Of a DNA stretch of 64,000 bases, positions 22,224 to 54,784 are shown piece after piece. Position 1 is the first letter of the stretch; every line of letters begins with the position of its first letter. A model generated the notes under the pieces. That model saw only the letters and a program-made list of their open reading frames with translations. It had not been told where the DNA came from and searched no databases. The translations under genes and the position numbers were made by a program. The stretch lies in assembly GCF_056712565.1 (NCBI RefSeq), contig NZ_CM160072.1; one strand, 5' to 3'.

Positions 22224-22994
22224 ATGACAACACAATCCCACCATGACCACGTAGAAAAGCAGTTTAGCTCTCAAGCCAGCGAATATCTGACCAGTACCGT
22301 ACATGCATCCGGACGAGATTTACAGCGCCTGGCGGTGCGTCTGGCTGATTATCCTGATGCAAGTGTACTTGATATGGGCTGCGGAGCAGGGCATGCCAGC
22401 TTTGTTGCTGCGCAAAACGTGAGCGCGGTGGTAGCGTATGACTTATCTGCCCAAATGCTGGATGTCGTGGCACAAGCTGCCGAAGCCCGGCAACTGAAAA
22501 ATATCACCACCCGCCAGGGTTATGCCGAAAGTCTGCCATTTGCCGATAACGCATTTGATATTGTTATCAGCCGTTATTCTGCCCATCACTGGCATGATGT
22601 TGGTGCAGCACTGCGTGAAGTGAACCGGATATTGAAACCTGGCGGTAGGCTGATTGTGATGGACGTAATGTCTCCGGGCCACCCAGTGCGCGACATCTGG
22701 TTACAGACGGTAGAAGCATTACGCGATACCTCTCACGTACGAAACTACGCCAGCGGTGAGTGGTTGAGGTTAATCAATGAAGCCAATCTGATAGTTGATA
22801 ATTTAATTACAGATAAGTTACCGCTGGAATTTTCTTCATGGGTCGCGAGAATGCGTACGCCAGAAGCGTTAGTAGACGCTATTCGCATTTACCAACAGAG
22901 CGCATCGACAGAGGTGAAAACGTATTTTGCCTTGCAGAATGATGGCTCTTTCACCAGTGATATCATCATGGTAGAAGCACATAAAGCAGCATAA
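22224..22994 (+). CDS. yafE: Class I SAM-dependent methyltransferase YafE
   Basis: 256-aa ORF with SAM-binding motif (VLDMGCGAGH), preceded by AAAGGA RBS. Confidence 0.8.
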   Translation: MTTQSHHDHVEKQFSSQASEYLTSTVHASGRDLQRLAVRLADYPDASVLDMGCGAGHASFVAAQNVSAVVAYDLSAQMLDVVAQAAEARQLKNITTRQGYAESLPFADNAFDIVISRYSAHHWHDVGAALREVNRILKPGGRLIVMDVMSPGHPVRDIWLQTVEALRDTSHVRNYASGEWLRLINEANLIVDNLITDKLPLEFSSWVARMRTPEALVDAIRIYQQSASTEVKTYFALQNDGSFTSDIIMVEAHKAA

Positions 22995-48507: not shown

Positions 48508-49212
48508 AAAAATGTTCCCGTTCAGGCCATGAGCACAGCATTTTCGTACTGCATACAAATACCGACAATACCGTTTCAGTGGCAGTTAGATAATGTAACC
48601 TTCCTTCTGTTGTGATCGGTATTCTACTCATGAAATAAAACATTAAAAGAACTATTTATATTTTTGAAAGAGATGTATCCTTCATTATTAATACATAAGA
48701 GTTAAATCAATTTGGTATTTATAGACTTAGTGAATATGATTTTACGGCTAATAAAGTTACATAATGCATTGATTTATATGTGTTTATTAAGTTGATTAAT
48801 AAGTTTTATGTATGGTTTTATAAATAAATTAATTAATTGCTAGAAATACATCATAAGAAATTCCTTTAAGGAATATCTTAATTGCGTGCCGGAACGATTG
48901 TGAAGTAAGTGTTGTAATGATTGATTTTTGAAGAAATTGTAGGTTTTTATGGGGGTAAGGATACGTTATGGATAATTCTACTGTTGATGTTGATATATTT
49001 TTAGCTTATGTAATCGTGTTCTGAAATTGACTAAAAATATATTTAAACACCATAAAAGAGTTTTTCGGTAGGTGCTAATTACGTGTGCCTGTAACTCGAA
49101 TAAAGAAAAGGGTGTGGTTCCTGATGTGAGCCGCATCACACTCTAACCTGTCGGGGATTAACGACGGGTTGTTCGTAAAACAGCAGTTGATAATTTCACA
49201 AGGAGTTCATAA
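48508..49212. promoter_or_regulatory. AT-rich divergent control region between tssB (minus) and hcp (plus)
   Basis: ~700 bp of strongly AT-rich non-coding DNA between the two divergent T6SS transcription units. Confidence 0.5.
49125..49140. promoter_or_regulatory. Candidate CRP-type binding site upstream of hcp
   Basis: TGTGA-GCCGCA-TCACA: both pentameric half-sites with 6-bp spacer, centred ~80 bp upstream of the hcp ATG. Confidence 0.3.
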
Positions 49213-49731
49213 ATGCCAACCCCATGTTACATTTCAATTACAGGTCAGACCCAGGGGAACATCACTGCCGGTGCTTTCACCGCAGATTCTGTCGGCAATA
49301 TCTACGTGCAGGGACACGAAGATGAAATGCTGGTGCAGGAGTTTCTGCATAACGTTACTGTTCCAACCGATCCGCAGTCTGGTCAGCCTTCCGGGCAGCG
49401 TGCTCACAAACCGTTCATTTTCACCGTGGCGCTGAACAAAGCCGTTCCGCTGCTGTACAACGCGCTGGCCTCCGGTGAAATGCTGCCGAAAGTGGAGCTG
49501 CACTGGTGGCGTACCTCTGTTGAAGGCAAGCAGGAGCACTACTTCACCACACGTCTTACTGACGCGACGATTGTGGACATGAACCTGCATATGCCGCACT
49601 GCCAGGACCCTGCACAGCGTGAGTTTACGCAATTGCTCGCAGTATCACTGGCCTACCGTAAGGTTGAGTGGGAGCACATCAAATCCGGTACTTCTGGTGC
49701 CGATGACTGGCGTGCACCGCTGGAAGCATAA
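49213..49731 (+). CDS. hcp: T6SS tube protein Hcp (TssD)
   Basis: 172-aa ORF, Hcp-like, preceded by AAGGAG RBS. Confidence 0.9.
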   Translation: MPTPCYISITGQTQGNITAGAFTADSVGNIYVQGHEDEMLVQEFLHNVTVPTDPQSGQPSGQRAHKPFIFTVALNKAVPLLYNALASGEMLPKVELHWWRTSVEGKQEHYFTTRLTDATIVDMNLHMPHCQDPAQREFTQLLAVSLAYRKVEWEHIKSGTSGADDWRAPLEA

Positions 49732-49740
49732 ATCTGAGTC

Positions 49741-49777
49741 AACAACATCCTGCCTCCGTGCAGGATGTTGTTTTTGT
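49741..49777 (+). terminator. Intrinsic terminator/attenuator between hcp and vgrG
   Basis: AACAACATCCTGC-CTCCGT-GCAGGATGTTGTT perfect 13-bp stem followed by TTTTGT. Confidence 0.7.
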
Positions 49778-49951
49778 ACGTGTAAAAAATGAGTGTCAGT
49801 AAGGAGTTACGCTTTCATGAGGGAGATGGTGGATGCCGGAAACCCGGGCGGTAGCGTACCTGAAAATGTAAAGATGAGTGTAACGCTGCACTGGCACCCT
49901 TTGCTGCATGGTGGGAATCATTTGGTCCGTGAATGAATCAGGGAGGTCATT

Positions 49952-51934
49952 ATGTCCTTAAAAGGTCTTCGCTTTACGCTGGAGGTTGACGGCCAGGAGC
50001 CGGACACCTTTGCAGTGGTGAATTTCCGGTTAATCCAGAACCAGTCTTATCCGTTTGTGATGAGTGTGGATGTCGCCAGCGATTCTTTTATGCAGACGGC
50101 GGAGATGCTGCTGGAGAAGAACGCAACGCTGACTATCTGGCAGGGTGTCATCCCGCTGCGTTATGTCACCGGCGTGGTGGCGGGCTTTGGCATGCAGGAG
50201 AACAACGGCTGGCAGATGCGTTATCACCTGCGTATTGAGCCGCCGTTATGGCGGTGCGGGCTGCGGCGGAACTTCCGTATCTTCCAGCAGCAGGATATCC
50301 GGACGATATCGGCCACATTACTGAACGAGAACGGCGTCACAGAGTGGACGCCGCTGTTTTATGAGGACCATCCGGCGCGGGAGTTCTGTGTGCAGTACGG
50401 GGAGTCGGACCTGGCGTTTCTGGCGCGGCTGTGGGCGGAGGAGGGGATTTTCTTCTTTGAGCGGTTTGCGGCGGACAGTCCGGAGCAGAAGCTGACGCTG
50501 TGCGACGATGTGGCGGGGCTGTCACAGGCGGGGGAGCTTCCGTTTAACCCGGACACATCGGCAGGAGCGGAGACGGAGTGTGTCAGTATGTTCCGTTATG
50601 AGGCGCATGTCCGCCCGTCATCGGTGCAGAGCCAGGATTACACGTTTAAGGTGCCGGACTGGCCGGGGATGTATGAGCAGCAGGGTGAGAGCCTGAACGG
50701 ACAGCTTGAACAGTATGAAATATTTGATTATCCGGGAAGGTACAAGGATGAACAGCACGGCAAGGATTTCACGCTGTACCGGATGGAGAGCCTGCGCAGT
50801 GATGCGGAAAAGGCCACAGGGCAGAGTAATTCGCCGAAGCTGTGGCCGGGGACGTGGTTTACGCTGACGGGGCATCCGCAGAAGATGCTGAACCGTGAAT
50901 GGCAGGTGGTACAGAGCATTCTGTCAGGAGACCAGCCGCAGGCGCTTCACGGCAGCCAGGGGAGAGGAACCACGCTGGGAAATCAGTTAGAGGTGATACC
51001 GGCGGACCGGACGTGGCGTCCACGGCTGCAAAGCAAACCGAAGGTGGACGGGCCACAGAGCGCCATTGTCACCGGGCCTGCGGGAGAGGAAATCTTCTGT
51101 GATGAACATGGCCGGGTACGGGTGAAGTTTCACTGGGACCGTTATCACGGGATGACGGAGGAGAGTTCGTGCTGGGTGCGTGTGTCGCAGGCGTGGGCGG
51201 GGCCGGGATTTGGTAATCTGGCGATACCGCGGGTGGGCCAGGAGGTGATTGTTGATTTTCTGAACGGGGACCCGGACCAGCCGCTGGTCATGGGCCGGAC
51301 GTACCATGAGGACAACCGTTCGCCGGGGAGCCTGCCGGGGACGAAGACGCAGATGACGATACGGTCGAAGACCTATAAAGGAAGCGGCTTTAATGAACTG
51401 CGGTTTGAAGACGCCACGGGCGGTGAACAGGTCTATATCCACGCGCAGAAGAACATGGATACGGAGGTGCTGAATAATCGGACGACGGATGTGAAGGCTG
51501 ACCACACGGAGACCATTGGTAACGACCAGAAGATAACGGTGGGGTTGGGCCAGACGGTGAATGTGGGGAGCAAAAAGGAAGGTGGTCATGACCAGAAAGT
51601 GACGGTAGCGAACGATCAGCATCTCACGATAAAAAATGACCGGCACAAGGTTGTAAATAACAACCAGACAAGCAAGGTGACGGGAACTGATACCGAAGAA
51701 GTCGTCAAAAAACAGAGTATTAAAATAGGTGATAATTACGAACTGAAAGTTGAGCATGGTACAAATATCATATCTGGGGACAGTATTGAGCTAATTTGTG
51801 GGCAGGGAGAGAGCGGGACTTGTTCCATAAAACTGGAGAAAACAGGAAAGATAATAATACGGGGGACGGAGTTTCTATTTGAGGCTACCGGTCCTGTAGA
51901 TATTAAAGGAAAAGATATTCATCTGAACGGATAG
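49952..51934 (+). CDS. vgrG: T6SS spike protein VgrG (TssI)
   Basis: 660-aa ORF with gp27/gp5-like core; no long C-terminal effector extension; GGGAGG RBS. Confidence 0.9.
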   Translation: MSLKGLRFTLEVDGQEPDTFAVVNFRLIQNQSYPFVMSVDVASDSFMQTAEMLLEKNATLTIWQGVIPLRYVTGVVAGFGMQENNGWQMRYHLRIEPPLWRCGLRRNFRIFQQQDIRTISATLLNENGVTEWTPLFYEDHPAREFCVQYGESDLAFLARLWAEEGIFFFERFAADSPEQKLTLCDDVAGLSQAGELPFNPDTSAGAETECVSMFRYEAHVRPSSVQSQDYTFKVPDWPGMYEQQGESLNGQLEQYEIFDYPGRYKDEQHGKDFTLYRMESLRSDAEKATGQSNSPKLWPGTWFTLTGHPQKMLNREWQVVQSILSGDQPQALHGSQGRGTTLGNQLEVIPADRTWRPRLQSKPKVDGPQSAIVTGPAGEEIFCDEHGRVRVKFHWDRYHGMTEESSCWVRVSQAWAGPGFGNLAIPRVGQEVIVDFLNGDPDQPLVMGRTYHEDNRSPGSLPGTKTQMTIRSKTYKGSGFNELRFEDATGGEQVYIHAQKNMDTEVLNNRTTDVKADHTETIGNDQKITVGLGQTVNVGSKKEGGHDQKVTVANDQHLTIKNDRHKVVNNNQTSKVTGTDTEEVVKKQSIKIGDNYELKVEHGTNIISGDSIELICGQGESGTCSIKLEKTGKIIIRGTEFLFEATGPVDIKGKDIHLNG

Positions 51935-52040: not shown

Positions 52041-53087
52041 ATGATAGAAATGAAAAATAACACGCCATTTCCTTTGTTGTCATTTGAAAAATATGGTCGT
52101 TATGGTCTTTTGTTTGATGTTATTGCTATTAAAATGTCATTGCGAATTAAAAATGGATTTTATGCTGATCTTGCTGAGTTTCAAAAAGAATTGTCCATGT
52201 CTGATGAATACTATGGGGAGTCTGAAACAAGTAGTCTAAAATCTGAAACAGACTTAGTTCTTTGTAAAAGAAATACAGATATTCACGTGACAGGTAGTGC
52301 TCATGCCCCTTCAGGGGATAAGTCTCAGTGGAAGGCTTGTGTGAGGGTTAATAGTTTTTCTAAAGAACTGAGTTTATCTGGTGTCCGCTACTTACAATAT
52401 GAGCGAAATCGTTGGCAGATGAGCTTACCAGATAAAATTATTAATGTTCCTCTACGCTATGAGCTTGCTTACGGTGGTATTTGGCAACCAGATGGTATGG
52501 AGAAATTGGTTTTTTCAGCAAACCCTGTAGGTTGTGGATATTATCCTGATATTTCTCAACTTAATACAAGTTGTCAATATAAACTCCCACAAATAACCAG
52601 CTCTGCTTTGTCAGAAAACGCTACCATTTTTAATGGGGAATCTGACTTTTTTCAAGGTGTTGGCCCTGTATCTCGATGGTGGAAAAGTCGCCTCCAGTAT
52701 GCAGGAACCTACAATGAAGTATGGCGTGAAAAGCGCTATCCCTATTTGCCGGATGATTTTGATGAGCGGTTCTACAATAGTGCTCATCCGGATATGATAT
52801 ACACGGGGTTTCTCTCTGGCGATGAAAACATCTCTCTTGAAGGTTTTTTTAAATTTGAACAGGTTGTTAAGACAAAATTGCCAGGTATACGACCTGTACT
52901 TATATTAAAAACCAAGCATAATACATCACATATGTTCTTACCTGTTGCGGATACAATGGTTATCGATTTAAGTCGACAGGAAATATACCTTACCTGGAGA
53001 TTAACAATACCTGATTTTTTTGGAATGAAAGAAGGAGTGCTGAGTTGTATTATTCCTGAATGTATAGGGAAAAAATATTATGGGTAA
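52041..53087 (+). CDS. Putative DUF2169-family T6SS adaptor protein
   Basis: 348-aa low-GC ORF directly between vgrG and a DUF4150/PAAR-like effector, the canonical adaptor position; assignment by context and size. Confidence 0.55.
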   Translation: MIEMKNNTPFPLLSFEKYGRYGLLFDVIAIKMSLRIKNGFYADLAEFQKELSMSDEYYGESETSSLKSETDLVLCKRNTDIHVTGSAHAPSGDKSQWKACVRVNSFSKELSLSGVRYLQYERNRWQMSLPDKIINVPLRYELAYGGIWQPDGMEKLVFSANPVGCGYYPDISQLNTSCQYKLPQITSSALSENATIFNGESDFFQGVGPVSRWWKSRLQYAGTYNEVWREKRYPYLPDDFDERFYNSAHPDMIYTGFLSGDENISLEGFFKFEQVVKTKLPGIRPVLILKTKHNTSHMFLPVADTMVIDLSRQEIYLTWRLTIPDFFGMKEGVLSCIIPECIGKKYYG

Positions 53088-54519
53088 CTATCATATCGGG
53101 GATGGTGAATGTAGATTTAGAGTCGTGTGTTCTTCACCAGATGTATGTGAAGTAGGAGGTTACAAGGTTCCTTTTGACAGTTACCAGACTTTAGATAGTG
53201 AAAGACAGTACAGTTCAACGGTATGGGCGCGTGGATGCAGAGCTTTAAATGTTGGTTCAGTGATTGCTGGAACTCAAAGTAATGCCGGTAAAGGTGTCAT
53301 ATCCGGTACATCTCAAGGAACGGGTGACTGTGTTATTTTAACGGGAAGTCCGACTGTAACAATAGAAGGGAAACCTGTTGCTTATCATGGTTCAGTTGTT
53401 GGGATTAATAACCACAACTGCCTTGGTAAATTGTATACCAAAATAAAATCACCAATGATTTCTGTCATTGATAGAACTTTTAATTATGAAAGGACTGCTG
53501 AAGTAATACACGATTTACTGCTTCTGAAGGATCTCCTCTCTGTTGGTAATATTTTTGACGGAGATATTTCACCTGAGGTTAAAAATGATTTATTTCAAAT
53601 AAAAGATCCTGACCAATCATGGGGGGAGTTTTTTTCAATAAAGAATATCAGAGAATCTCTCAGGAATGGTATTGAAGGAGATAAATCTCAGATCAGAGAA
53701 TGGTTTGGAGAGAACACACTTACTCAAATGGGGAATGGAGCAATCACCACTTTACATGGTGTGGCGGATTTAGCCTTAGTTACATTCGATGCTCTGTTAG
53801 ATACGGCAACGGCAACGGTTGCTTGCCCGATAGGCGAAGATGGGTTATGTGAACAGGCAAATATAAATTTAAATGAAAAAGAACAGGCTTTATTTAATAT
53901 TAGTAATTCATTGATAAATGGGCAAGCATGGGATGCACTTAAAAAAATGATAATGGATACAAATAATGGTGATCAGATTGCTCTGGTGCATTTTGCCAGC
54001 TTTTTATGGGGCTTTATGATACCCGCAAAAATACCAGAAGAAAATATCTCTGGGAAAGTATTTGTAGAGCCAGTAGTTTTAGAAGGTGGTGCTGGTGGCA
54101 ATTGGACAGTATTTGATGAGGTTTTAGATTCAAATGTAATAAAGCAATTGACTTTAACAGGCTGTGGAGCGGCCTGTGGGGAAATGTTGCTTAGGGATAG
54201 GTATATTTTTGTCACGCAAAATGTAATTGGAACAGAATTAACATCTATGACGTCGCTGGCAAACAAGCTTAATAAATTTGATGTCGGCTGGGAAGGGAAT
54301 GCAGTGAGCGAATCTAGTTTATATGCCCTCAGTAATACTGGTTCATGGGGAGCAATGATGTGGGATTCTGGAAGTAAAGTAGGGCATTGGGTACTTGTTA
54401 AGGGTGTTGATGATGCTGGGAATGTGATAATATATGATCCATATCAAGGGAGTCGATATCTGATGACTGAACAGGAATTTAAGGAGGTATGGAATGGGCA
54501 TAGTGTTTACAAACCATAA
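53080..54519 (+). CDS. DUF4150/PAAR-like T6SS effector with C-terminal papain-like cysteine-peptidase toxin domain
   Basis: 479-aa ORF; N-terminus carries DUF4150 motifs (SPDVCEVGG, SGTSQGTGD, GSPTVTIEGKPVAYHGS...NNHN); C-terminal ~130 aa has a Cys/His/Asp arrangement (GCGAACGEM ... GHWVLVKG ... IYDP); start overlaps the upstream gene by 8 nt. Confidence 0.75.
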   Translation: MGNYHIGDGECRFRVVCSSPDVCEVGGYKVPFDSYQTLDSERQYSSTVWARGCRALNVGSVIAGTQSNAGKGVISGTSQGTGDCVILTGSPTVTIEGKPVAYHGSVVGINNHNCLGKLYTKIKSPMISVIDRTFNYERTAEVIHDLLLLKDLLSVGNIFDGDISPEVKNDLFQIKDPDQSWGEFFSIKNIRESLRNGIEGDKSQIREWFGENTLTQMGNGAITTLHGVADLALVTFDALLDTATATVACPIGEDGLCEQANINLNEKEQALFNISNSLINGQAWDALKKMIMDTNNGDQIALVHFASFLWGFMIPAKIPEENISGKVFVEPVVLEGGAGGNWTVFDEVLDSNVIKQLTLTGCGAACGEMLLRDRYIFVTQNVIGTELTSMTSLANKLNKFDVGWEGNAVSESSLYALSNTGSWGAMMWDSGSKVGHWVLVKGVDDAGNVIIYDPYQGSRYLMTEQEFKEVWNGHSVYKP

Positions 54520-54784
54520 TATTGATTTGTTATCGGTTGAATTTGATGAGATTACAAAAAATTGTAATTACACTTTTAGTGTAGATGGAGAGACGGCTAT
54601 CTTTACTGCTAGAATATCAATAATAAGAAATATAAAGGGAATTAAATATAGCGAAGAACTTGATAAATTTATAATGTCAATAATGCCATTGCAGCCTAAA
54701 GTATCAAAAATTTTGGGAGGTGTTACTTGGGATTGTATTTGTGGTAAGGAAGTTGGATTTCCTGTGAGATTAATTGGTAAGTGA
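54494..54784 (+). CDS. Putative cognate immunity protein
   Basis: 96-aa ORF overlapping the effector 3' end by 26 nt, same strand, low GC; no signal peptide. Confidence 0.5.
   Translation: MGIVFTNHNIDLLSVEFDEITKNCNYTFSVDGETAIFTARISIIRNIKGIKYSEELDKFIMSIMPLQPKVSKILGGVTWDCICGKEVGFPVRLIGK

What the first reader, a model, noticed from the sequence alone, without database searches (positions are those of the whole stretch)
49817..49936. Possible 39-codon small ORF in the hcp-vgrG spacer
ATG at 49817 (MREMVDAGNPGGSVPENVKMSVTLHWHPLLHGGNHLVRE) is preceded by AAGGAG at about 10-nt spacing and ends 16 nt before the vgrG start. It could be a leader peptide or a chance ORF; the spacing is slightly long for an optimal RBS.
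Basis: seen in the sequence. Interest (0 to 1): 0.15.

Follow-up and report, generated by a model that had tools for sequence, protein, structure and literature searches.

The report
Chance ORF over RfaH ops site
The 39-codon reading frame between the hcp and vgrG secretion genes is very probably not a gene: the DNA under it is conserved because it carries an 'ops' signal, a known short sequence that loads the anti-termination factor RfaH onto RNA polymerase so that long, foreign operons are fully transcribed.

Summary
It is no more than chance gives. 18% of shuffled spacers hold an equal or longer forward ORF, and the reverse strand of the same spacer has a 41-codon ORF.

It is not conserved as a gene. 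Its start codon is present in 3 of 19 orthologous spacers. An 8-nt insertion shifts its frame relative to most relatives. ORF length runs from 8 to over 99 codons. Variability is flat across codon positions (0.36/0.28/0.31, against 0.15/0.08/0.95 in hcp). Protein databases hold only unnamed, near-identical gene calls.

The nucleotides under codons 2-16 are strongly conserved across at least 10 enterobacterial genera. The only invariant run, GGTAGC, lies inside GGCGGTAGCGTA (49847-49858, sense strand). This is an RfaH ops element (consensus GGCGGTAGnnTG). The same 12-mer is RfaH-bound in the leader of a PAAR-vgrG island in E. coli CFT073. Functional ops sites after hcp are published for the T6SS-1 clusters of EAEC and CFT073.

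Best reading: hcp, then its terminator, then an ops leader, then vgrG and an AT-rich effector operon under RfaH anti-termination. This is a new instance of a known kind. Interest is low.

The parts
49213..49731 (+). hcp (172 aa Hcp tube protein), the gene upstream of the spacer
   Evidence: ORF list; annotated as an Hcp family T6SS effector in the 100% identical ATCC 11775 record.
49741..49777 (+). Intrinsic terminator of hcp: 13-bp stem (49741-49753 with 49760-49772), 6-nt loop and a T-tract (TTTTTGT)
   Evidence: Fold dG -20.3 kcal/mol, z = -4.77, 0 of 200 shuffles fold as well. Both arms change together in the sister cluster and in other genera. The consensus scan missed it because stem extension consumes part of the T-run.
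49794..49812 (+).
   Evidence: Pairs with 49878-49896 in the minimum-energy folds of the window and of strain C5. 83-91% of cells are paired across relatives, but covariation is not above the controls.
49817..49936 (+). The 39-codon ORF of the finding; judged a chance, lineage-specific ORF
   Evidence: sequence; chance level; not conserved as coding; no family.
49821..49846 (+). Conserved block directly upstream of ops (GGGAGATGGTGGATGCCGGAAACCCG). It includes the conserved ATG at 49826, a partial direct repeat of ops (GGTGGAT here, GGCGGAT in most relatives, against ops GGCGGTA) and a small hairpin (GCCGG 49835-49839 with CCGGGC 49844-49849)
   Evidence: Conserved in all 19 loci found through Hcp, which were selected without reference to the spacer. 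Its function beyond ops is not established.
49847..49858 (+). ops element GGCGGTAGCGTA, the RfaH loading and pause site on the non-template (sense) strand; read by the ORF as G11-G12-S13-V14
   Evidence: Pattern match, with 0.17 matches expected per window. Its positions 4-9 (GGTAGC) are the only invariant run in the spacer alignments. The consensus and the roles of the bases come from PMC9562583 and PMC5995543. The same 12-mer is RfaH-bound in CFT073.
49863..49870 (+). Lineage-specific 8-nt insertion (about AAAATGTA) that shifts the ORF frame relative to most relatives
   Evidence: Present only in the window type and in E. whittamii. The downstream conserved block GTAAC is read in frame 0 here and in frame 1 in most others.
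49878..49896 (+). 3' arm of the inverted repeat (GTGTAACGCTGCACTGGCA)
   Evidence: It stays conserved as nucleotides even where it is read in a different frame.
49940..49946 (+). Shine-Dalgarno sequence of vgrG (AGGGAGG), 5 nt before the ATG
   Evidence: Read directly from the sequence. A G-rich block occupies the same place in the relatives.
49952..51934 (+). vgrG, the first gene downstream of ops
52041..54784 (+). Rest of the downstream unit: DUF2169 gene (52041-53087), PAAR-like domain gene (53080-54519) and a small hypothetical gene (54494-54784); AT-rich
   Evidence: Annotation of the identical ATCC 11775 record mapped with an offset of 43,699. GC is 31-41% from about 51500 onward.

Best explanation
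The interval is an untranslated leader, not a gene.

Shown: transcription coming from hcp meets the hcp intrinsic terminator (49741-49777). About 70 nt further on lies the ops element GGCGGTAGCGTA (49847-49858), on the non-template strand.

Inferred from the established ops/RfaH mechanism: polymerases that read through the terminator pause at ops. The exposed non-template strand forms the small hairpin that RfaH recognises. RfaH loads and stays bound. It suppresses pausing, Rho-dependent termination and H-NS-assisted termination through vgrG and the AT-rich DUF2169/PAAR effector genes, and it helps couple the ribosome.

The 39-codon ORF exists only because this conserved DNA happens to be open in one frame. 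ops reads as Gly-Gly-Ser-Val in that frame, and the B2-type lineage has acquired an upstream ATG and an 8-nt insertion.
For: 1. The sequence matches the ops consensus at 11 of 12 positions, on the sense strand, 93 nt before vgrG. Every position needed for RfaH contact (3-8) and the pause T11 are consensus. Only G12 is A (roles of the bases: PMC5995543).
2. The identical 12-mer GGCGGTAGCGTA (PAAR-vgrG island c1882) and another A12 variant (kpsM, GGCGGTAGCATA) are RfaH ChIP-seq sites in E. coli CFT073 (PMC9765446, Data set S2A).
3. In the alignments of 16 and of 50 distinct spacers, the only invariant run is GGTAGC, which is ops positions 4-9.
4. 18 of 80 loci retrieved through Hcp alone carry a strict ops on the sense strand, 17 of them 115-133 nt after the hcp stop and one (L033) at 332 nt. 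About 0.07 would be expected by chance on a uniform base composition (my own arithmetic, not a tool output).
5. The block is conserved at the nucleotide level (0.87 pairwise identity, against 0.58 at hcp third positions) and shows no codon periodicity (0.36/0.28/0.31, against 0.15/0.08/0.95 in hcp).
6. The same layout of hcp, terminator, ops and next gene occurs in the CFT073 T6SS-1 cluster. The equivalent ops1 between hcp and clpV is needed for downstream transcription and for T6SS activity in EAEC (bioRxiv 10.1101/2025.02.08.637259). That preprint also states that the EDL933 T6SS carries ops.
7. The element also sits directly in the vgrG leader where no hcp lies upstream (L121, L123/L174, L202).
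8. rfaH is present in 5425 of 5426 complete E. coli genomes.
9. The downstream genes are AT-rich, like other H-NS-bound RfaH targets.
Against: 1. There is no direct evidence of RfaH binding or dependence for this cluster. The published T6SS ops sites are in a different cluster type (T6SS-1) and in an orphan island.
2. G12A removes the G of the pause-inducing TG dinucleotide, so pausing may be weaker.
3. ops lies downstream of a strong terminator, and no promoter was predicted between them. The flux of polymerases that reach ops is therefore unknown.
4. The operon after ops in this strain is short, about 5 kb before IS remnants.
5. The 12-nt ops does not by itself explain why about 26 nt upstream and the flanking inverted repeat are also conserved.
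6. If the ORF is translated efficiently, ops would lie in a coding region, and ops-like sites in coding regions were not RfaH-bound in CFT073.
Confidence: 0.8

Rival explanations
1. The 39-codon ORF, or the shorter frame from the conserved ATG at 49826, encodes a real small protein or leader peptide whose translation matters for vgrG expression.
For: The ORF is intact in the 549 E. coli genomes that carry this spacer type; the sampled variants keep it open, and TGA to TAA keeps a stop. AAGGAG lies 10 nt before ATG 49817. The ATG at 49826 is conserved in 18 of 19 loci found through Hcp, and the frame through ops has no indels, which gives a recurring MxDAGxxGGSV prefix. PGAP sometimes calls a 45-aa protein in the sister spacer.
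Against: ATG 49817 is present in only 3 of 19 loci. The C-terminal two thirds are read in another frame in most relatives. Length ranges from 8 to over 99 codons, one relative has AAG in place of the ATG, and one stops after 13 codons. Variability is flat across codon positions, and Gly third positions inside ops never vary. The loop base of the hairpin takes all four nucleotides, giving N/H/D/Y. The conserved ATG has GGGAG abutting it with no spacing. AAGGAG is paired in the predicted stem. There is no Pfam or NCBIfam hit, and only 12 unnamed, near-identical clusters of 30-61 aa exist in 5.8 billion proteins. The few within-lineage changes are all amino-acid-changing. An ORF of this length is expected by chance in 18-31% of shuffles.
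Confidence: 0.05
2. The conserved block is a structured cis-regulatory RNA in the vgrG 5' UTR (a long-range stem enclosing a hairpin) that controls vgrG translation or mRNA stability, for example through a GGA-binding protein such as CsrA. This would act independently of RfaH or in addition to it.
For: The window and strain C5 fold into the same long-range stem. 87-91% of cells are paired across 16 and 50 relatives, against 29-54% for slid partners. In the 50-sequence set, 9 pairs show changes on both sides, and 9 to 24 of 500 shuffles reach the observed counts. Several GGA motifs are present (AAGGAG, GGGAGA, CCGGAAA and the Shine-Dalgarno sequence).
Against: Folding z-scores are weak (-1.63 and -0.62). 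The RNAalifold covariation term is about 0, and the stem is not recovered in the broader set. The covariation score is not above shuffles (248/500 and 138/500), and slid controls give similar numbers of double changes. The arms are replaced or missing in several clades that keep the ops block. There is no Rfam match. The CsrA idea rests on motif resemblance only.
Confidence: 0.12
3. The conserved block is an internal promoter or operator for vgrG, that is, a DNA site for a transcription factor or an alternative sigma factor.
For: The element also occurs at the end of AT-rich divergent intergenic regions where no hcp lies upstream (L121, L123). TTGTCA resembles a -35 hexamer, and the arms form a DNA inverted repeat.
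Against: The sigma-70 scan finds nothing in the spacer. By eye, the -10 candidates are poor, and the GG/GC spacings do not fit a sigma-54 promoter. The invariant bases coincide exactly with the RfaH-contacting bases of ops, not with a promoter hexamer.
Confidence: 0.05
4. Nothing functional is here: the spacer is neutral DNA, and both the ORF and the ops match are coincidences.
For: A 12-mer can occur by chance. A second ops-like match lies inside a coding region at 22641.
Against: The block is far more conserved than hcp synonymous sites (0.87 against 0.58). It is kept at a fixed distance from hcp in many genera, while its flanks diverge.
Confidence: 0.02

Closest known systems
ops1 element of T6SS-1 clusters (EAEC Sci1 hcp-clpV spacer; CFT073 hcp-tssH spacer)
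   Same: A consensus-type ops on the sense strand in the spacer directly after hcp, preceded by an hcp terminator hairpin and followed within about 50-100 nt by the next T6SS gene. CCTGAA follows ops in both. RfaH binding is shown in CFT073, and dependence on ops and rfaH is shown in EAEC.
   Different: The cluster type and the downstream gene differ (T6SS-2-type cluster with vgrG, against clpV/tssH). The sequence upstream of ops is unrelated. The 12th base is A, not G. There are no experimental data for this cluster.
ops of the CFT073 orphan PAAR-vgrG island (c1882)
   Same: The identical 12-mer GGCGGTAGCGTA lies in the leader of a vgrG-containing unit and is RfaH-bound in the hns stpA mutant.
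   Different: No hcp or terminator lies upstream. The distance to the first gene is about 300 nt. The flanks are not homologous.
JUMPStart sequence of polysaccharide operons (rfaQ, wzx, wza, kpsM leaders)
   Same: It ends in the same ops 12-mer, lies in a 5' leader, and carries a partial upstream repeat of the GGTAGC core.
   Different: The JUMPStart upstream half (CAGTG...TGGTAGCTGTTAAGCCAGG) is not present here. The T6SS-2 spacer has its own conserved upstream block.
Leader peptides and small ORFs in bacterial intergenic regions
   Same: A short ATG-started frame with a Shine-Dalgarno-like motif, just upstream of a structural gene.
   Different: None of the marks of a conserved coding sequence is present: start, frame, stop and codon-position bias all fail.

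Membership tests
RfaH ops element | 12-nt consensus GGCGGTAGnnTG | tested here: met
   GGCGGTAGCGTA at 49847-49858 matches 11 of 12 positions; only G12 is A. The A12 variants GGCGGTAGCGTA and GGCGGTAGCATA are RfaH-bound in CFT073. G12C keeps RfaH recruitment in vitro.
RfaH ops element | Lies on the non-template (sense) strand of the unit it controls | tested here: met
   It is on the + strand, the same strand as hcp and vgrG.
RfaH ops element | Located in an untranslated leader or intergenic region upstream of the controlled genes, not inside a translated gene | tested here: inconclusive
   It is intergenic by annotation, 93 nt before vgrG. It does lie inside the 39-codon ORF. Comparative evidence says this ORF is not a conserved gene, but translation was not measured.
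RfaH ops element | The RfaH-contacting bases (positions 3-8) are conserved in orthologues | tested here: met
   GGTAGC (positions 4-9) is the only invariant run in the 16- and 50-sequence alignments. 17 of the 19 Hcp-derived loci, which were selected without reference to the spacer, fit GGCGGTAGnnT[AG].
RfaH ops element | The host encodes RfaH | tested here: met
   rfaH is found in 5425 of 5426 complete E. coli genomes. It is not within this window.
RfaH ops element | RNA polymerase pauses at U11, RfaH binds, and downstream expression depends on rfaH and ops | not testable with these tools
   This needs ChIP, in vitro transcription, or reporters in rfaH and ops mutants.
JUMPStart (39-bp polysaccharide-operon leader element) | Conserved upstream half (CAGTG...TGGTAGCTGTTAAGCCAGG) preceding ops | tested here: not met
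   Side-by-side comparison with the CFT073 rfaQ, wzx, wza and kpsM leaders shows no similarity upstream of ops.
Conserved small protein or leader peptide | Start codon conserved in orthologous loci | tested here: not met
   ATG 49817 is present in 3 of 19 loci. The second ATG (49826) is conserved in 18 of 19 but has no spaced Shine-Dalgarno sequence.
Conserved small protein or leader peptide | Reading frame and stop position conserved; indels in multiples of three | tested here: not met
   Indels of 8, 4, 2 and 1 nt occur. The 3' block is read in frame 0, 1 or 2. Length ranges from 8 to over 99 codons.
Conserved small protein or leader peptide | Substitutions concentrated at third codon positions | tested here: not met
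   Entropy by codon position is 0.36/0.28/0.31, against 0.15/0.08/0.95 in hcp of the same loci.
Conserved small protein or leader peptide | Recognisable protein family | tested here: not met
   No Pfam or NCBIfam match. There are 12 unnamed clusters, all at least 77% identical, 30-61 aa long.
Structured cis-regulatory RNA | Base pairs supported by compensatory changes above controls | tested here: inconclusive
   87-91% of cells are paired, but the covariation score is reached by 248/500 and 138/500 shuffles, and slid controls give similar numbers of double changes. There is no Rfam family.

The most novel reading that the evidence does not exclude
The conserved mini-ORF from ATG 49826 (MxDAGxxGGSV..., 13 or more codons), which reads straight through ops, is a genuine leader peptide. 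Its translation would decide whether RfaH can load. A ribosome following the polymerase across ops would make it behave like the ops-like sites in coding regions, which are not RfaH-bound, so translation efficiency of the leader would gate anti-termination of the vgrG/effector operon. The flanking inverted repeat would set how accessible the start codon is.
Probability: 0.04. Interest if true: 0.6.

Novelty: new member of a known kind. Interest (0 to 1): 0.12.

Why it matters
The practical value is negative: this ORF should not be annotated as a gene. Annotation pipelines do call similar small 'hypothetical proteins' across ops leaders. WP_001297813.1 is called in the sister spacer, and WP_001332072.1 is called over the CFT073 c4518 ops, which it reads as ...GGSVP....

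The positive value is modest. The result places the T6SS-2-type hcp-vgrG cluster of B2 E. coli, its sister cluster in about 2,200 other E. coli genomes, and relatives in at least 10 enterobacterial genera among the likely RfaH-controlled units. This extends published work on T6SS-1. It predicts that expression of vgrG and its AT-rich effector cargo depends on RfaH, while hcp, which lies upstream of ops, does not.

Tried and rejected
- Rfam scan of 48500-50500 at a permissive E-value gave only chance-level hits.
- The sigma-70 promoter and terminator scan found no promoter in the spacer. It also missed the obvious hcp terminator for a technical reason.
- I first pursued a structured-RNA explanation. 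The complementarity is real, but covariation is not above the controls, and the arms are absent in several clades. I kept it only as a minor rival.
- CsrA-site and sigma-54-promoter readings were considered by eye and dropped. The motif spacing does not fit sigma-54, and GGA motifs are not specific.
- A possible relic of hcp inside the ORF ('VTLHW' against Hcp 'VELHW') was considered and dropped, because the segment is read in another frame in most relatives.
- JUMPStart membership was tested and not met.
- The 39-aa query was too short for the protein search, so the 47-aa GTG version was used.
- The Y. pseudotuberculosis RfaH paper added nothing relevant.
- The E. amylovora paper reports no ops upstream of its T6SS-1 cluster, although the EAEC preprint lists E. 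amylovora among species with an ops inside the cluster.
- I did not check whether CFT073 carries this cluster type. Its two T6SS-related ops sites are at other loci.

Full report
**Observation.** The ORF is exactly as described. ATG is at 49817, followed by 39 sense codons (MREMVDAGNPGGSVPENVKMSVTLHWHPLLHGGNHLVRE) and TGA at 49934-49936. AAGGAG is at 49801-49806, 10 nt before the ATG. vgrG starts at 49952 behind its own AGGGAGG. hcp ends at 49731, so the spacer is 220 nt. The window is E. coli; the region is 100% identical to strain ATCC 11775. There the neighbourhood is tssGFECB (minus strand), then hcp, vgrG, a DUF2169 gene and a PAAR-like gene. PGAP annotates nothing in the spacer. The ORF is not unusual. 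17.7% of dinucleotide-preserving shuffles of the spacer contain a forward ATG-ORF of at least 39 codons, 31.3% contain one on either strand, and the real spacer has a 41-codon ORF on the other strand.

**Relatives.** 549 complete E. coli genomes carry this spacer at 97.6% identity or higher. In the sampled variants the changes inside the ORF are V5A, G33K or G33E, and TGA to TAA. All are non-synonymous except the stop-to-stop change. A further 2,193 or so genomes carry a sister cluster (Hcp 94% identical) whose spacer matches at about 75% over window 49737-49864. A scan of one genome per species with the Hcp protein gave 80 loci. Nineteen of them, counting the window and strain C5, have a homologous spacer. 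They come from Escherichia, Citrobacter, Superficieibacter, Pseudocitrobacter, Yokenella, Atlantibacter, Buttiauxella, Phytobacter, Lelliottia and an unnamed Enterobacteriaceae genome. These loci were selected without reference to the spacer. A DNA-pattern scan of metagenomes added more variants, 50-57 distinct sequences in all depending on the stretch compared.

**Is it a gene?** No.
- ATG 49817 exists in only 3 of the 19 Hcp-derived loci.
- A 4-nt indel removes it in the sister cluster.
- An 8-nt insertion (about 49863-49870), found only in the window type and in E. whittamii, shifts the frame. The conserved nucleotides downstream (GTAAC.CTG.ACTG) are therefore read in frame 0 here and in frame 1 in most relatives.
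- From the one conserved ATG (49826), ORF length runs from 8 to over 99 codons. One relative has AAG in its place, and one stops after 13 codons.
- Across the same loci, hcp shows the expected codon periodicity of variability (entropy 0.15/0.08/0.95). The 13 conserved codons show none (0.36/0.28/0.31).
- The block is nevertheless much more conserved (0.87 pairwise identity) than hcp third positions (0.58).
- One position takes all four bases, giving N/H/D/Y.
- There is no Pfam or NCBIfam hit, and only 12 unnamed, near-identical clusters of varying length exist among 5.8 billion proteins.

The constraint is therefore on nucleotides, not on a peptide.

**What the nucleotides are.** The only invariant run in the spacer alignments is GGTAGC. 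It lies inside GGCGGTAGCGTA (49847-49858, sense strand), which is GGCGGTAGCGTG in most relatives. This is the ops element, the recruitment and pause site of the anti-terminator RfaH. Its consensus is GGCGGTAGnnTG (PMC9562583). Bases 3-8 are needed for RfaH recruitment, and T11/G12 induce the pause. G12C abolishes the pause but not recruitment (PMC5995543). The pattern is expected 0.17 times per window. Among the 80 Hcp-derived loci a strict ops is present in 18, in 17 of them 115-133 nt after the hcp stop and in one at 332 nt, against about 0.07 expected on a uniform base composition (my own arithmetic).

**Published context.** RfaH ChIP-seq in E. coli CFT073 found eight leader ops sites. One is in the hcp-tssH spacer of its T6SS-1 cluster. 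Another is in the leader of an orphan PAAR-vgrG island, whose 12-mer (GGCGGTAGCGTA) is identical to the one here. The kpsM site also has A at position 12. ops-like sites inside coding regions were not bound (PMC9765446). In EAEC, the ops between hcp and clpV and the rfaH gene are required for transcription of the downstream T6SS genes. The authors note ops elements in T6SS clusters of several enterobacteria, including EDL933, which is among the E. coli strains carrying T6SS-2-type clusters by general knowledge (not checked here) (bioRxiv 10.1101/2025.02.08.637259). rfaH is present in 5425 of 5426 complete E. coli genomes.

**Anatomy and mechanism.** hcp is followed by a strong intrinsic terminator (49741-49777; dG -20.3 kcal/mol, z -4.8). 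Both arms of the hairpin change together in relatives. ops lies 70 nt further on and 93 nt before vgrG. The CFT073 T6SS-1 spacer has the same order: hcp, terminator hairpin, ops, next gene. The genes after ops become AT-rich (31-41% GC from about 51500), like the H-NS-bound RfaH targets described in CFT073.

Shown: the motif, its strand, its position, its conservation, and the presence of rfaH in the species.

Inferred: polymerases that pass the hcp terminator pause at ops and acquire RfaH. They then transcribe vgrG and the effector genes without Rho- or H-NS-assisted termination. This uncouples abundant Hcp from the rarer spike and effector proteins. The element also occurs directly in vgrG leaders that have no hcp upstream, and ahead of other genes inserted between hcp and vgrG. 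Both arrangements fit a leader signal.

**What remains unexplained.** About 26 nt upstream of ops (49821-49846) are as conserved as ops itself. This block contains a partial repeat of ops and a small hairpin. An inverted repeat flanks the block (49794-49812 and 49878-49896). It is 83-91% paired in relatives, and both E. coli versions fold into it. Covariation is not above the shuffled or slid controls. The arms are missing in several clades that keep the ops block. The upstream block is not the JUMPStart sequence of polysaccharide operons, and there is no Rfam family. A second function, such as an RNA structure or even a 13-codon leader peptide starting at the conserved ATG, cannot be excluded but has no positive support.

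**Verdict.** The interval is best described as an RfaH ops leader. It is a new instance, in the T6SS-2-type hcp-vgrG spacer, of a mechanism already published for T6SS-1 clusters and for many other operons. Interest is low.

Noticed in passing
L004 1647-1660 (E. coli 2018-05-2CC) and L007 3089-3101 (E. coli AREA_497); equivalent to window 49858/49859: Two independent deletions in complete genomes have their left junction immediately after ops position 12. One joins ...GGCGGTAGCGTA to the middle of vgrG (about codon 215, with 2-3 nt of microhomology). The other joins ...GGCGGTAGCGTG to the interior of an rhs core gene. This may be coincidence or a fragile point at the pause site.
   Followed up: partly
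L005 3029-3166 (E. coli C5) and L213 231-359 (CFT073 c4518 leader): PGAP annotates small 'hypothetical proteins' across ops-containing leaders: WP_001297813.1 (45 aa) in the sister hcp-vgrG spacer, and WP_001332072.1 (42 aa) over the RfaH-bound c4518 ops, which it reads as ...KGGSVP.... ops is open in the GGC-GGT-AGC-GTG frame, so such calls look like a recurring annotation artefact.
   Followed up: partly
window 22641-22652 (+): A second ops-like 12-mer, GGCGGTAGGCTG, lies on the sense strand inside a 256-aa methyltransferase-like ORF (22224-22994). Sites of this kind inside coding regions were not RfaH-bound in CFT073, so it is probably a chance match.
   Followed up: partly
window 49859-49864; L209 7498-7503; L215 (kpsM leader): The hexamer CCTGAA directly follows ops in the hcp-vgrG spacer, in the CFT073 hcp-tssH spacer and in the kpsM leader, but not in the rfaQ, wzx, wza, hlyC or c4518 leaders.
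   Followed up: no
window 49897-49951 and the first 600 nt of vgrG; loci L008-L040: Identity of the VgrG N-terminus to the window (50-100%) is uncoupled from Hcp identity. For example, Pseudocitrobacter is 96% identical and Superficieibacter 55%, while both have Hcp at least 96% identical. The spacers diverge right after the conserved block. This suggests that vgrG/effector modules are exchanged by recombination with a boundary just downstream of the ops leader.
   Followed up: no
L161 5294-5990 (metagenome contig): hcp lies inverted directly next to the ops leader of an E. coli-type cluster. This is either a real inversion or an assembly artefact.
   Followed up: no
window 48500-49100: The tssB-hcp divergent intergenic region is very AT-rich (29-30% GC). 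This is typical of H-NS-silenced promoters, and the only sigma-70-like hits of the scan lie here.
   Followed up: no
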